A stretch of 64,000 nt of DNA. Origin: Octopus vulgaris. Taxonomy: Eukaryota. Made by a program: the position numbers and the translations under genes. The notes under the pieces were generated by a model. The model ran no database searches and was not told where the DNA came from. It saw only the letters and a list, made by a program, of their open reading frames with translations. The DNA lies in contig OX597826.1 of assembly GCA_951406725.2 (NCBI GenBank), positions 36,890,001-36,954,000 on the forward strand, read 5' to 3'. Of the stretch, positions 4,864 through 58,122 are shown piece after piece. Within the stretch, counting starts at the first letter, position 1. Each line of letters begins with the position of its first letter.

Positions 4864-6394
4864 ACTTTCTACAATAGAATGTCTTGACAGACTTTCAGAA
4901 TAGCACACCCATATATATATATATATATATATATACAAACATACATACATACATACTTACATACATGCATACATGCATACATACATACATACATACATAC
5001 ATACATACATACATACATACATACATACATACATACATACATACATAGTAAACCCAAGAAAAGATCAAACACAAGAAACACAACAGTGCGAGGATGTGGT
5101 ACATGTAAAGTATTAGCAAACGCTCATGAAAGGAAAGAAAGAGGGTTTAATTTCTGTCGACTCCCTCAGCCCTACCCCTAACAGATATTGATCTTTGTTC
5201 TCTCAGCTTTAGATATACAAGGATTTGATAAACTAGTCTATAAATTGAAACTAATCCCAACAGAAGATCAGTGACAGGCAGATTCTGTAGCAATGCATTT
5301 CTCCTTGATAACTTAGTAACCTCTATGCTGGAGTGAAACCAGCATGTTCTTTGTCTATCTCCTTAACTTCTTGGAGATTTTAGGTATAATTATACTAATG
5401 TGTCCATCTGTTCTAATTTAATTAAAGTCTGTTTCTTGGTGCAGCCGAGGATTGCTCTGCATTTTAAATCGATGTAATTATTGCATTGTTCAATTAAATG
5501 GAGTTACATGAAGCGATCGTACTGCATTACCTCTGGATATCCTTGTTGCTTATTTTGATTTTGTGTTTGCATATATATATGTATATGTGTGTGTGTGCCT
5601 GTGGGCGCACCCGCGCATCTATATGCATGCGTGTACCTTCATGTATGTGTATGTATGTTATATTTAATGTTATATATTCGTTATTGTGTATATCGATGTC
5701 CATTGCTCCGATCCAAAGCACCAACAAACATCCGAATCATGATCTCTCATTGCTTAACTATCTCTTATAACTAAAATTGAAACCACATTTCCACGCACAG
5801 TTTGCAAGTATTCAAACTGTAAATCTCGCCTCCAGGTGGGCAACCATCTCATCCAGTCAATTAATAGCAACTCAATATCTACGATGAGAACTAAAACGGC
5901 TGCCATTCACATAATTTTGACAACATTATTGTTTTCGTCTAAATATCGCTTTGAAGGTGATTGACTTTGTAAAATAAATTGCCCATTTAATAAATATCAT
6001 ACCAAATTCGAACTATTTCATTTGAATTTCAGTTACATCATAATGCGTCTACATAATCTTACACTCATTTAAAATATATCTAAAGTAATGATTTTGACTT
6101 TCAATATTGCTGAGCATGAATGAATTACTTGTGCGTATAATACCTGGCGTAAGATTTAAACATCATTGTGATTCTCCATCAATGACATTGGATTGTTTGT
6201 TATCGAAGACCCTAAATGTATTTACGAGGTTTCGAGTGAGTCTCAAATGATGCCTCTAAGTTTCAAATAAATACTGGCAAGAGTATTTTCGCTGAAATAC
6301 CATTGTCCGGATAGAAAAGTGTTTACAGAAGTGTTACAGCTGGATTTCTATTTCATAATATATGCATGTATATACACACAAACACACACATATG

Positions 6395-6448
<54 letters not shown>

Positions 6449-6511
6449 GTATATATATATGTGATATATATATATATATGTGATATATATATATATATAT
6501 GTGATATTATG

Positions 6512-6549
<38 letters not shown>

Positions 6550-7694
6550 TAAATACATACATACATTACACACGTACATAGACGTATACATATGTGTACA
6601 TATATAAACAATTAAATTGAATAAATTCATGAGTTTATGTTTACGTATGTATATGCATAGATATATATGTGTGTGCACACACAAACACGCACGCTCGCGA
6701 ACATGCACACACACACATATATATATATACACACACAAAGATATACATAATGTGTGTATTCATATACGCATATTTAAGTGTGTGTGCAAATAGCATACAG
6801 ATATAATACATACATATACAAATATATACACATGCATATATACATATATATATATATACATATTTATGCATATATATATATATCTACAAATATACATATA
6901 TATATATACACATATATATTCATATATATTATGTATATATATATGTGTGTATATATATATATGCGTGTGTGTGTGTGTGTATATTCATATCTGTATATGT
7001 TCTTGGATGTACGTATACGAGTAAGTTGTTTTTTTTAACAAATTTATATATCAGTATTGATGTGTCCCTGCGCTTTAATATTTCAAATTCTCTCTGTGAT
7101 ATTACGAACAATAGGCTTGCAAAATTTTCCACACATGACTATGTATGACAATGTTATTGTGCAACAAACTTCTTAAATAGATACTCAATTGTTAAAATGC
7201 CTTTGAACATATTGCTCCTAGCAACACATTCCATTTTGCACCCTGTATTGTTGTACTTATTGTTGCCATATCTATAGACTTCTGCTAGATTTTACTTCTT
7301 TACAGAAAATGTTTCAAACATTTCTCTTGTTGCTGCTTTCAATGGTCTCTGATTTCCTGTTCTATGTTTCACAATGTTGACATTCTGATATTTGTCTCCA
7401 AAGGCTATTGATGTTCATCTTAATTCATGGATATTTCTTTCCTTAATTTTGTTTGTATATTGTTGTTGGAGGTTCTTTTTGTTGTGGCTTTTTGTTATAT
7501 TTATATATTTACACAGCACTAAGAAAAATGATAAATCATTAACCAAGTAAGTCTTCCTTCAAATATGGTATACATAGACACAGACCCGCATAGACACAGA
7601 CACACACACCTACGCAAGTATGTGTGTATGTATGAGATATATTATAAATGTGTGTGTCTACGCGTATGCATCTGTGTTTTTGTGTGTATTGACC

Positions 7695-7767
<73 letters not shown>

Positions 7768-9516
7768 AGTGTGTGTGTATTGACCGTATATATGCAATCA
7801 AGATATACATTTTTGCTTATATTTATGCATCTGAAAGACCAGAATATGCCACGGTGAACGGGAAAACGTGGGCCTCTCCCCTCCATAGGAATTACATCTA
7901 TCTCTTGCGGGGTAACGGTATACCTTTTTCATACCAATAAGCGGTGATAATTTAAATTCAAAATATTAATATAAATTTTTACTGAATAATATAACATTAT
8001 TACTCCTTATCAGATCTCTCTATTTCAATACTCTCAAAAGATATCAAAGTTTCATTGAAAAGGTGTTGAACACTCTTTGTCATACCAAAGGCTAAATACT
8101 TGGGTTTTAGGAGGTTGAAAGTCTTTAAGGAATTAGTTAAAATCATAGCTTAAAATCGCAGTTACACTTTCTCCCATATCCGGATATTGGTAATTTGTCA
8201 CGTAGTTTTGGAGGAATTTACACAAATGCCGTTGCATTGATAGCGGTACTGAAGATAATGGAATCTGAGATTTCTCAGACGTTCTCAATAACCATCACTT
8301 ATCATGACAAATCATTGTTCTCTGAGATAAATTTCTTCTCAGGGAATTTTGTTTCTTAAAGAGGAATCCCTATGGGGATGCCATACTCCAAGCGTGACCA
8401 TGCAAAAGTAGAAGACAAGAAGATAGCATCTGAATATCTGCACCAGAGAGGTTTGAGAGTCCAGAAACTGTGTAATCCAAGCCTTCCAGAGTCTGTTCAA
8501 CTCACTTAACTAAAGGCTGCTCAACGATGACGTTTATGATTGTTCGAGCATATCGTCTTTGGCAATGAGGACGTATCCAGATTCTTCTTGTTCAATGGCA
8601 TATCACTCTTTTCATATAAGACCGCCTCAGTTTTATCCAGTCAGAGGATTTGCTGGCAGTCCTCGGATTCTTAGATTTTTTCACGAATATATTTATCGTG
8701 TTCTTTGGTTGATGTAAAGATGAAAATGAGTGCGCCAAATATATTACCTTAGGAAAACCACTGGTGATATTTACAAGGCTTCATTAAATTTCATCGATGA
8801 TATATTGTAGAGTTTCGAATACTAAGCAACAGTTAATCAAGGGCAGGATTACTAGATGGAATACCATGTTGGATGGATTCAGCAATTCAGATTTTAGCAT
8901 ATGACTCTTCGTGTTCCTCCATTGTGCGGGTTATAGAAATATGGAAGTTGACGTGATTCTTTGAACTGTTTTCGGCACATCGAAGTCATTGTTTAATGGC
9001 AGCACTGGTAGTAGTCTGCGCAGGAAGATGTCGGCAGGCATCGATACGTTTGGCTGAATTTATTTTGCTATTATTAAAGTTTGTCTTCTTTGTTTCTGTT
9101 TCATGCACTGCAAAACATCAGTCGGTTCTTCAAAAGTTCAACGATTGCAATATTATTGTACAATTCTTCGCTTTTTCCTAAAGAAATATTGTTATATGTG
9201 ACCCGAAAGTAATTTTCACATTGCACCGTAGTTGATTCAGAGAGACAGAAAGAGTGAGATAGAAAGCGAAGAGAAAAAGATACTTGGCCCCAGTATTTAA
9301 TTCCATTTCTGTTATCAATCCTTGGGCTGATAAGAGATGGAGTTGATTTTGGGTTTGAACTCAGAACACAGACAGTAGATATGAATGTGTTATGGCTGAC
9401 AATTTAACGACTTCTCCCAACGCGCTGCTTATTATATTTAATTTGCCTAGAAATAGACTTCATTCTTGTATGGCTCATATTCAGCTATGGATATTGTAGT
9501 TATTTAACCGGATAAA

Positions 9517-13877: not shown

Positions 13878-15041
13878 ACACACCCCCACACACACTCAAA
13901 CACACACATATTCGGAAAACGATTGTGACTTCGAAGAATAGATGAAATTATATTTTTAAAGCAGTATGAAATACTGCTTTATCAAACGTCGATATTACTA
14001 TCTCCTAGGAAATATTTATCTCTTTAACTCTACAATCTGCTTTGCCTTGTCTTTCTGCAGCTAAGGTTTTAAATATATATGTGTGTATGTGTGTGTGCAT
14101 ACATACATACACACACACATACATACGTACATATAGGCATACATATATATGTGTGTGTGAATGTATATTTATAAAGTCTCTTCAGAGACTTGGGTTATAT
14201 TTAATTTATTGTTTATATATATATATATATATATATAGATGAACACTGTCGGATTCCGGATTAATACCGAAGTTCTTTAGGTGTGGAAAATCGTGGTTTC
14301 ATGACGGTAAACCCTCCTCTTTAAACCTATGCAAAAACTGGTGTTCGAAGCATAGTTCGTATAGAAGCATGTGCAACTCAACATTAACGATGTACTAAAG
14401 TATTTCTTTGTTTTATTATTTGGCTTTCATATGTATAAACGTTTAATTTTATAGTATTCTAACCTTCAAAATCGCCTGATGAAACGGAGTGGTTACGTTA
14501 AAATATATTATATATTAACGAATAAATAGCTATGGTGCGGAAACGCACCATAATAATATCATTTGATTCTCTGTTTGAAAAATTTCTACTAGGAACTTTT
14601 TTATGTTTATCCAACATGCACAATTTTGTGATTCCGATTAGTAAATAGAATATGCGTAATGGTGAACAAATAATACCAAGAAAATTTTCCAGCTCCCTTT
14701 TATATAATGTATGTTTGTATACATGTATATATGATTCAGTATTTATCATACAGACATATTGAAAGACTGTGTTGGTAAATAGTCATTTAGGTGTTTATGT
14801 AAATCGACGAAGAGACAGTTATGTTGGTAAAAGACTACACTGATGATCGACTAAAGGAATTACGTTAGAGATGGAGAGAGGAAACGTTTAAAAGTAAATG
14901 AGAAAATAAATATAGCGAGAATAAAAGCAAAACAGTCCTACATTATTGGTGAAGAAACAATCTGCACGTTGTCAATCTACCTTGCTTTATTCACAAAACC
15001 GAACAATTATATAGATAGATATATAGACACACACACACACA

Positions 15042-29874: not shown

Positions 29875-30152
29875 CAAACCCAGTTCGAGAAATATGTCAG
29901 AAAAATCGGAATTGACATGAGAGCAGAGATAGCCCCCAAAAATCTGCTCTGCTGGGGACAGAGAGCTAGGATTTTGAGATTGGTACTTGGATGCTGAATA
30001 TCTCACACGTTAGTTAACAACCAAGTATCAATGCTTATAATGTGCGAAAAGAGACACCGTGAGACATCTGACGGCAGGCCGCTGTCCTCTCTCGCAGAAT
30101 CTACCAGAGCAAACAAGGCCGAGCCATGTGAGAAGGAAAATGCTAATAATAA
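29875..30152 (+). mobile_element. RLE retrotransposon 3' fragment (family D3)
   Basis: Decayed QFEKYVRKIGIDMRAEIAP.KSALLGT..RILRLVLGC*, followed by a UTR shared with 1507-1683 and a (TAA) tail. Confidence 0.7.
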
Positions 30153-30235
30153 TGAGAAGAAGAAGAAGATGAAGAACAAGAAGAACAAGAAGAACAAGAA
30201 GAACAAGAACAAGAAGAAGAAGAACAACAACAACA

Positions 30236-30337
30236 ATGGTAATTGCAGTGGTTAAGAGGGAGAGCTACTAACCTCAATATTCTGAGTTCGATTCCAGGCA
30301 GGACCTGGATAATAATAATAATTATAATAATAATAAC

Positions 30338-30394
<57 letters not shown>

Positions 30395-30534
30395 CATAAT
30401 ATCGAAAAATACCTTAGGAATGAGAACCCAGGTTCGAAATTTCCCCAAGACTCCTGATGAAGGCTGTAGAGTATATCAGACGAAACGTTGTGTTAACAGC
30501 AAACAAGATGAGGACAATGTAAATGTAAATAATG
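30236..30534 (+). mobile_element. tRNA-headed short element with internal (TAA)n and a hammerhead-like motif
   Basis: A-box-like TTGCAGTGGTT, anticodon-like loop CTACTAA and B-box GAGTTCGATTCC (30284-30295). Then (TAA)n, a second B-box-like GGTTCGAAAT and a CTGATGA...GAAAC core. Confidence 0.6.
30449..30494 (+). ncRNA. Minimal type I hammerhead ribozyme-like motif (degenerate)
   Basis: Stem I GACTC/GTGTT (1 mismatch), CTGATGA at 30454-30460, stem II GGCTG/CAGAC (1 mismatch), GAAAC at 30482-30486, then GTT. Stem III is reduced to the palindrome AACGTT. Confidence 0.55.
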
Positions 30535-54157: not shown

Positions 54158-54370
54158 AAACTGAAATAGAATTAATTAATATGATTATTCTGCCTACACT
54201 GGTTCCATAATAGCATATCTTTTGCAACAGATACGAGCAAACAGTCTGACAGACAACCTTTAAAACTGAAATTGAATGAATAAATATGATTACACTGCCT
54301 ACACTGATTCCATGAGAGCATATCGTTTGCAACAGATATGGACAAACAACTTGACAGACAACCTTGAAAA
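54158..54370. repeat. Tandem duplication, two diverged 105-bp units
   Basis: ctgaaat at 54161 and 54266; shared atatgatta..ctgcctacactg.ttccat...agcatatc.tttgcaacagata...gacagacaacctt. Confidence 0.85.
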
Positions 54371-57398: not shown

Positions 57399-58122
57399 AG
57401 GAGCAGTCGTGACTGTATGGTGTGTATGCTTCCCAAACCACATGATCCAGAGTTCAGTCCCACTGCGTAGCACCTTGTGCAAGTGTCTTCTACTATAGCC
57501 TCGAACCGACCAAAGCCTTGTGAGTGGATTTGGTAGACGGAAATTGAATGAAGCCCATCGTATATGCGTGTGCATATGTATACATATATGTGTGAGTGTG
57601 TATGTATATATATATATATATATATATACATACATATATATGTGTCTATAGATACATAGTTGTGATACCTGTGCCGGTGACACATAAAAAAGCACCATCC
57701 GAACGTGGCCGTTGCCAGTGCAGCCTCCACTGGCTTCTGTGCCGGTGGCACATAAAAAGCACCATCCGAACGTGACCGATGCCAACCCTGCCTCGAATGG
57801 CTTCTGTGCCGGTGGCACATAAAAAGCACCATCCGAACGTGGCCGATGCCAGCATCGCCTTGACTGGCTTCTGTGCCGGTAGCACATAAAAAAGCACCAA
57901 CCGATCGTGGCCGATGCCAGACCCCTCTGGCACCTGTGCAGGTGGCACGTAAAAAGCACCCACTACACTCGCGGAGTGGTTGGCGTTAGGAAGGGCATCC
58001 AGCTGTAGAAACACTGCCAGATCAGACTGGAGCCTGGGGCAGCCCCTGGCTCCCCAGACCCCGGTCGAACCGTCCAACCCGTGCTAGCGCGGAAAACGGA
58101 CGTTAAACGATGATGATGATGA

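What the first reader, a model, noticed from the sequence alone, without database searches (positions are those of the whole stretch)
30236..30534. Pol III-type tRNA head fused to a minimal hammerhead ribozyme (retrozyme/SINE hybrid)
Seen: A and B boxes, an internal (TAA)n, a second B-box-like motif, then the CTGATGA / stem II / GAAAC-GTT core. Stem III is only the palindrome AACGTT, so it cannot fold as a monomer hairpin, and stems I and II each have one mismatch. Established: minimal type I hammerheads with palindromic stem III occur in Penelope-like elements and animal retrozymes and can act as dimers, and schistosome SMalpha repeats combine Pol III boxes with a hammerhead. Inference: this is a self-cleaving short retroposon probably dependent on Penelope-like RT, and PLE fragments are present in this window. 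This copy may be inactive.
Basis: partly seen in the sequence, partly recalled or inferred. Interest (0 to 1): 0.75.

Follow-up and report, generated by a model that had tools for sequence, protein, structure and literature searches.

The report
Penelope retrotransposon with captured tRNA promoter
The feature is a truncated end-piece of an abundant protein-coding Penelope-like retrotransposon whose terminal repeat holds a tRNA-derived promoter sequence and a hammerhead ribozyme motif, and the promoter likely lets RNA polymerase III, normally a maker of short non-coding RNAs, start the element's RNA.

Summary
The motifs are real but are not a free SINE or retrozyme. They are a 5'-truncated copy of the pseudo-LTR of an autonomous Penelope-like element (PLE), about 30,000 copies. 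ORF end, head, (AAT)n and hammerhead are collinear, and the hammerhead runs into the next ORF. The hammerhead and the 'second B box' are coding sequence of an 838-codon RT ORF starting at window 30420. Family majority restores both stems; this copy is decayed.

What is unusual is the tRNA-derived A/B-box head inside the pseudo-LTR. Among 36 clean copies reaching it, 18 begin within 9 nt lying 6-14 nt upstream of the A box. The 2.65-kb sense strand has no TTTT (Pol III terminator; about 5 expected). None of 33 other PLE ORFs with at least 3 expected has zero. Best reading: a captured Pol III promoter starts the element's RNA (0.55), perhaps the whole coding RNA (0.35). Rivals are a Pol II start or hairpin snap-back. 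No RNA start or ribozyme cleavage was shown.

The parts
30240..30246 (+). Remnant of the PLE 3' UTR (5' arm of the hairpin before the head), followed by a 17-nt deletion
   Evidence: Alignment to family majority; only a 7-nt match, so modest evidence on its own
30247..30307 (+). tRNA-derived head: 3' half of A box (30247-30251), B box (30284-30295); no cloverleaf
   Evidence: Sequence; alignment; 74% identical to a genomic tRNA-Arg(TCG) over 53 nt and 64-69% to other tRNA-like repeat heads; ARAGORN negative; fold z-score 0.13
30309..30400 (+). Internal (AAT)n tract, variable in length among copies
30401..30534 (+). Pseudo-LTR body: 5' leader, ORF start, hammerhead and first RT-start ('tail') region
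   Evidence: 90.9% identity to family majority over 143 nt; the 3' end falls in the first of two 3'-end clusters
30420..30515 (+).
   Evidence: tblastn 90.6% identity, E 4e-13; the same-frame peptide occurs in relative P0003
30449..30494 (+). Minimal type I hammerhead: stem I 30449-30453/30490-30494, core 30454-30460, unpaired A 30461, stem II 30462-30467/30476-30481, GAAA 30482-30485, predicted cut 30489/30490; mismatches in both stems in this copy

Best explanation
This is a decayed 5'-truncated copy of the pseudo-LTR of an autonomous Penelope-like retrotransposon, and the tRNA-derived A/B-box head fixed in that pseudo-LTR likely acts as an RNA polymerase III promoter that starts the element's RNA. 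Shown: the unit is ORF (838 codons, RT plus C-terminal endonuclease-like part) - short 3' UTR - head - (AAT)n - ATG - hammerhead - ORF again, in partial tandems and inversions. Inferred: a small tRNA-derived SINE with an (AAT)n tail landed in a master's 3' UTR; Pol III starts 9-14 nt before the A box and, meeting no TTTT, would read through the unit. The upstream promoter of a tandem would give long templates; the downstream one would give short SINE-like templates. The element's RT starts internally 120-170 nt into the ORF and copies back to the RNA 5' end, where the cDNA is joined to the target or snaps back into an inversion. The hammerhead would cut the start codon off the ORF; by analogy it needs a dimer or protein help, and cut RNAs are rarely copied. 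Odds: PLE identity 0.95; Pol III start 0.55; Pol III makes the full coding RNA 0.35.
For: PLE identity: of 30 loci fetched by the ORF end, 26 have head and body downstream, 2 body only, 2 head only (one is the query locus, three are segmental duplicates). The body runs into the ORF start, with full tandems in L190 and L197. The majority ORF is 838 codons without a stop; RVT_1 E 2.8e-10; 57% to P0003 and 37% to Anolis P0091 over 812-830 aa. 118 of 179 head copies have an inverted partner. The 3' ends of 100 copies form two clusters about 40 nt apart, the PLE tail signature. Promoter: the family A and B boxes match consensus at tRNA spacing (43 nt) while the cloverleaf is lost. Of 49 unique-flank copies, 5' ends are 7 in 226-256, 6 in 218-225, 18 in 209-217, 2 in 187-208 and 16 further in the ORF (A box = 223); 47 of 98 other inverted or direct junctions also fall in 209-217. 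Snap-back centres never include the native sequence upstream of 209 (78 contexts against 0, both strands counted). A TATA-like TTTATAA lies about 30 nt upstream. Terminator lack: 0 TTTT in 2,517 nt of ORF against 2.9 (codon shuffle, P=0.024) and 5.0 (third-base null, P=0.0085); 0 in the 2,652-nt unit; 0.35 per kb in 84 natural copies with no recurrent site. Controls: a Neptune-like PLE in the same genome with the same T content has 7-9. 36 other PLE ORFs have 349 observed against 289 expected, and none of the 33 with at least 3 expected has zero.
Against: No RNA start was seen. The RNA-seq laid was unstranded, 72-77% of reads ran on into unrelated sequence, and no start or end pile-up appeared. 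The pile-up sits on a hairpin (-9.1 kcal/mol), and weaker hairpins also collect a few ends (about 5 of 100 near stem II). A TATA at -30 fits Pol II equally well, and the known Penelope promoter is a LINE-like internal promoter with an intron (PMC2377424). The TTTT test is one family and rests on an in-script majority sequence. One of 36 controls also has zero (L399, 1,437 nt, 2.9 expected), and a Dong/R4-like LINE set in this genome is low too (5 against 10.4). The nearest protein relatives share the low Phe content, so T-poverty may predate the head. How an uncapped Pol III RNA would be translated is unexplained. Copies are about 8-12% from the majority and none intact was seen. Pfam does not call GIY-YIG on this family's C-terminus.
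Confidence: 0.55

Rival explanations
1. The pile-up marks the element's ordinary Pol II start in the pseudo-LTR. The tRNA-like head is a SINE insertion carried as a passenger in the 5' UTR, and the lack of TTTT is compositional.
For: D. virilis Penelope has its start and internal promoter in the pseudo-LTR (PMC2377424, abstract and Discussion). TATA-like motif at about -30. A capped RNA solves translation. Low T-runs also occur in L399 and in a LINE set.
Against: The start would fall by chance where A/B boxes position Pol III. The boxes are intact while the stems are lost. Zero TTTT is an outlier among PLE ORFs (Poisson 0.002-0.006). No intron is evident: copies run uninterrupted from head to ORF.
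Confidence: 0.2
2. There is no RNA start here. RT stalls or the cDNA snaps back at the hairpin before the head, which alone makes the short and inverted copies; the head is inert.
For: The pile-up coincides with a GC-rich hairpin apex, and many junctions are snap-back palindromes (32 of 179). Palindromes elsewhere in the body also collect ends.
Against: The excess holds in unique-flank copies (18 of 36 within 9 nt). No snap-back used the longer, more stable native stem (0 against 78). A comparable hairpin, stem II (-6.7 kcal/mol), stops only about 5% of copies. It does not explain the TTTT lack.
Confidence: 0.15
3. One reading: an independent tRNA-headed, self-cleaving retrozyme/SINE that borrows PLE RT and is processed by its hammerhead.
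For: Short head-plus-hammerhead copies are the commonest form. Schistosome SINE-like repeats combine a Pol III promoter and a hammerhead (PMC6765202, passages). Non-LTR retrozymes derive from pseudo-LTRs (bioRxiv 10.64898/2026.07.22.740005).
Against: The same sequence is collinear with the ORF on both sides. The hammerhead is coding. No tandem arrays of the short unit were seen in the copies examined, and no separate short-family sequence emerged. About 5 of 30 examined hits begin at the cut site, out of 150 such hits genome-wide.
Confidence: 0.05

Closest known systems
Penelope/Poseidon-type PLE, e.g. PAc of Anolis carolinensis (PMC11167929, parts 1-2 of 4 read)
   Same: Single RT+EN ORF, pseudo-LTR, hammerhead overlapping the ORF start with the cut site downstream of the start codon, two internal RT starts giving a tail, AT-rich/ATT context. 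37% identity to P0091 (that P0091 is PAc is my inference).
   Different: Here the ATG lies upstream of the whole hammerhead, a tRNA-derived A/B-box head sits in the pseudo-LTR, and the sense strand lacks TTTT. None of 35 hammerhead-like motifs in 80 relative loci has an A or B box within 260 nt upstream.
Minimal hammerheads of metazoan PLEs (PMC4209133, parts 1-2 of 4 read)
   Same: Short stem I, longer stem II, unpaired base before stem II, palindromic stem III; mostly found as dispersed single motifs from truncated PLEs.
   Different: The parts read mention no tRNA-derived promoter.
Schistosome SM-alpha/Sj-alpha SINE-like hammerhead repeats (PMC6765202, passages)
   Same: Pol III promoter followed by a hammerhead, with the upstream unit driving the downstream one.
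   Different: Those are short, non-coding tandem repeats. Here the pair is embedded in an autonomous coding element.
Non-LTR retrozymes (bioRxiv 10.64898/2026.07.22.740005, part 1 of 5 and passages)
   Same: Type I hammerhead, pseudo-LTR ancestry.
   Different: Defined as non-coding tandem repeats. That text has 0 occurrences of 'tRNA' or 'promoter'.
tRNA-derived SINEs (SINE2); octopus tRNA-Arg SINEs (recalled, not read)
   Same: A/B boxes without a cloverleaf, copies starting just before the A box, simple-repeat tract after the head.
   Different: The head is not a family of its own: of 13 of 179 heads without a body, 12 stop in (AAT)n and one is cut by another repeat.

Membership tests
Penelope-like element (EN+, Penelope/Poseidon type) | Single ORF with PLE-type RT | tested here: met
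   838-codon majority ORF; RVT_1; 884 PLE-type homologues
Penelope-like element (EN+, Penelope/Poseidon type) | C-terminal GIY-YIG endonuclease | tested here: inconclusive
   No Pfam hit on L057; P0003 E 0.23; Anolis P0091 none either. The C-terminus aligns end to end with these relatives, and some homologues carry PF01541
Penelope-like element (EN+, Penelope/Poseidon type) | Partial tandems forming pseudo-LTRs, 5' truncation and inversion | tested here: met
Penelope-like element (EN+, Penelope/Poseidon type) | Optional 30-40 bp tail (two RT starts) | tested here: met
   3' ends of 100 copies cluster at 440-461 and 481-494
Penelope-like element (EN+, Penelope/Poseidon type) | Clade placement by phylogeny with labelled references | tested here: inconclusive
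   Quick tree only, no labelled reference set. Groups with P0001-P0009, far from the Neptune-like element; relation to the Anolis group unresolved
Minimal type I hammerhead | Conserved core, stems I and II, palindromic stem III | tested here: met
   Family majority pairs fully; 28 of 119 unselected copies fully intact, 67 with intact core; 89% of cells paired, no compensatory change. This copy has mismatches
Minimal type I hammerhead | Self-cleavage (dimer or protein-assisted) | not testable with these tools
   No RNA ends at the site; few copies begin there
tRNA-derived SINE | A and B boxes from a tRNA | tested here: met
   (met in the family; A box half deleted in this copy)
tRNA-derived SINE | Non-coding, non-autonomous unit separate from its partner element | tested here: not met
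   Collinear with and overlapping the PLE ORF
tRNA-derived SINE | Transcribed by Pol III | not testable with these tools
   Indirect only: 5'-end pile-up, no TTTT
Non-LTR retrozyme | Tandem repeats of a short non-coding hammerhead unit | tested here: not met
   The copies examined are single, inverted or partial tandems with ORF sequence
Non-LTR retrozyme | Circular RNA intermediates | not testable with these tools
   No back-joint at the cut site among the joints listed; 63 joints were not shown

The most novel reading that the evidence does not exclude
An autonomous, protein-coding retrotransposon whose whole 2.6-kb RNA is made by RNA polymerase III from a captured tRNA-type promoter. Its ORF has been purged of Pol III terminators, and its terminal repeat doubles as a built-in SINE generator. 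It would be a living intermediate between PLEs and the Pol III hammerhead SINEs of schistosomes.
Probability: 0.35. Interest if true: 0.85.

Novelty: new variant of a known kind. Interest (0 to 1): 0.6.

Why it matters
As I recall, autonomous retrotransposons use Pol II or ride on Pol I, and Pol III is the preserve of non-coding SINEs. A PLE driven by Pol III would break that split, raise the question of how an uncapped RNA is translated, and offer a route by which Pol III hammerhead SINEs arise from PLE terminal repeats. It makes a simple test possible (B-box mutation, inserted T5). Even under the rivals, it matters for annotation: thousands of SINE-looking repeats in this genome are PLE fragments.

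Tried and rejected
Rfam found nothing relevant at E<=5 locally or at gathering score in the window; ARAGORN found no tRNA. Monomer folds are not better than shuffles (z -0.8 and -1.3), and there is no covariation among 16 near-identical copies. Sequencing runs: no RNA holder listed. Three raw RNA-seq runs of a coded organism B (perhaps a sister species) and one contig set were laid: unstranded, mostly read-through, no start or end pile-ups, so uninformative on start site or cleavage. In vivo cleavage: 6 of 100 copies began at 391-394, but these are confounded by a palindrome and microhomology. A targeted pattern gave 150 hits, of which 23 of 30 examined were point or deletion variants and about 5 began at the site, so I rejected it as a signal. 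The GACTC stem I variant looked like a subfamily (6 of 16) but was selection bias (0 of 119). The window's other CTGATGA...GAAAC at 14840 has no PLE protein match. The first metagenome scan found nothing. The PAc sequence was not in the supplements held as text, so it could not serve as a TTTT control. DNA for the closest relatives (P0001-P0009) was not obtainable. Earlier scan findings: none. RNase P processing at tRNA +1 was considered and set aside because the acceptor stem cannot pair.

Full report
Observation. The host is a 2.80-Gb, AT- and microsatellite-rich genome; that it is an octopus-like cephalopod is my inference from size and recalled repeat types, not tested. Neither Rfam nor ARAGORN scores the region.

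It is a large repeat family. Exact patterns give 2,751 matches for the hammerhead core, 10,513 for the tail and 2,931 for the head, each with 0 in the control. Calibrating on copies picked by ORF sequence (7 of 80, 32 of 92 and 9 of 57 match exactly) gives roughly 30,000 bodies and 19,000 heads (small calibration sets).

It is the end of a PLE. Two of the first 29 copies ran upstream into an ORF end. Searching with that end gave 30 loci: 26 with head and body downstream, 2 with body only, 2 with head only. Walking upstream reached RT and the N-terminus. The hammerhead body continues into the ORF start, and L190 and L197 show ORF end, head, body and ORF start in tandem. An in-script majority gives an 838-codon ORF with no stop after one local alignment fix. 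It starts at the ATG matching window 30420, so the hammerhead and the 'second B box' are coding. Relative P0003 (57% over 830 aa) has the same-frame hammerhead peptide. A natural ORF piece hits RVT_1; Pfam does not call the endonuclease. Staggered 5' truncation, inversions (118 of 179) and two 3'-end clusters about 40 nt apart match the PLE features described in PMC8557442 (passages) and PMC11167929 (parts 1-2 of 4). A quick tree without labelled references places it away from a Neptune-like element, so Poseidon type is inferred.

Hammerhead. The family majority pairs both stems: 116 of 119 unselected copies have the stem I pair that this copy lacks, and 28 of 119 are fully intact. The architecture matches the PLE minimal hammerhead of PMC4209133 (parts 1-2 of 4), where monomers did not cleave. 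In PAc, cleavage needed protein and was not needed for insertion (PMC11167929). Here too, copies beginning at the cut site are rare. Activity is untested.

The head. In the family the A and B boxes fit the (recalled) consensus at 43-nt spacing, and the cloverleaf is lost. It is closest to tRNA-Arg among the few isotypes sampled and 64-69% like other tRNA-like repeat heads nearby. Head plus (AAT)n looks like a small SINE fixed in a master's 3' UTR (inference). It has no independent life: 166 of 179 heads have the body downstream (2 edge hits skipped), and 12 of the other 13 stop in (AAT)n.

5' ends. Among 100 copies picked by the tail only, 8 reach the ORF, 3 end at 187-201, 29 at 202-233, 8 at 234-287, 27 in (AAT)n and 25 in the body (reference numbering: stop 186, A box 223). 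Of the 179 head copies I set aside 130 with inverted or direct partners. In the 49 with unique flanks, 18 of the 36 that reach 217 end in 209-217, and only 2 of the remaining 18 end in the next 22 nt (some starts at 216 were moved to 214 for CpG decay, within the same bin). Of the set-aside copies, 47 of 98 asymmetric junctions fall in the same bin. Snap-back centres are always the short perfect palindrome (78 contexts, both strands counted) and never the longer native stem. I read this as the 5' end of a dominant RNA template, where type 2 promoters place Pol III (established knowledge), with a TATA-like motif about 30 nt upstream. A hairpin at the same place is the main confounder.

Terminators. 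I predicted before counting that a Pol III-read unit should lack TTTT. The ORF has none in 2,517 nt (2.9 expected by codon shuffle, P=0.024; 5.0 by third-base null, P=0.0085), nor does the 2,652-nt unit. 84 natural pieces have 0.35 per kb with no recurrent site. A Neptune-like PLE of the same genome and T content has 7-9. From 80 metagenome loci, 36 non-redundant ORFs of at least 350 codons have 349 against 289 expected; one short ORF has zero, and none of the 33 with at least 3 expected. Against this: a Dong/R4-like LINE set is also low (5 against 10.4, overlapping pieces), and near relatives share low Phe.

RNA. Three raw RNA-seq runs gave 6,218-9,118 reads each, unstranded, 72-77% running on into other sequence, with no start or end pile-up. 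This is read-through of dispersed copies and decides nothing.

Mechanism and rivals are given in their sections. Shown: structure, copy anatomy, end distributions, T-run counts. Inferred: SINE capture, Pol III start, full-length read-through, the role of the hammerhead.

Literature. Ten full-text searches listed no paper whose title or abstract start describes a PLE with a tRNA-derived promoter; one search returned zero papers. I also read passages of PMC6765202, PMC6962438 and PMC13282606 (one supplement searched, motifs absent), the abstract and Discussion of PMC2377424, and part 1 of 5 plus passages of the 2026 retrozyme preprint (its supplements are closed). Repbase, Dfam, subscription journals and repeat libraries deposited elsewhere were not seen; the family may be catalogued there, perhaps split into a SINE and a PLE.

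Verdict. A real feature and a member of a known class, with an apparently undescribed promoter capture that is directly testable. Interest 0.6.

Noticed in passing
L057, L211, L219, L225, L289, L294, L306, L308: The internal (AAT)n is a landing site for other retroelements. In 7 of 27 copies that seem to end there, the head lies 365-929 nt further upstream beyond an insertion; L057 has a 351-codon Dong/R4-like ORF (label recalled) between head and body.
   Followed up: partly
L351-L380 (e.g. L358:137-2488): A young Neptune-like PLE family (97-99% identical copies, intact ORFs of about 780 codons, GIY-YIG by Pfam) with repeated CTGATGA/TTGATGA-type motifs in its 3' region; probably recently active.
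   Followed up: partly
window 29983-30236 and 1513-1682: Another dispersed repeat (79% between the two copies) ending in a microsatellite; the PLE copy sits in that tail.
   Followed up: no
L177, L184, L179, L185, L175: Tandem junctions join a point about 400 nt into the ORF (reference 718-738) to a downstream copy starting at 210 or near the ribozyme cut site, some with extra A residues. This suggests a further RT start site and template jumps.
   Followed up: partly
window 14840-14885: A CTGATGA...GAAACGTT motif without an obvious stem II or PLE protein match.
   Followed up: partly
L399: A relative's 1,437-nt ORF piece also lacks TTTT and prefers TTC; no A/B head in the 459 nt held downstream.
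   Followed up: partly
window 54158-54370 and 57669-57960: Tandem repeats of 105-nt and 67-nt period.
   Followed up: no
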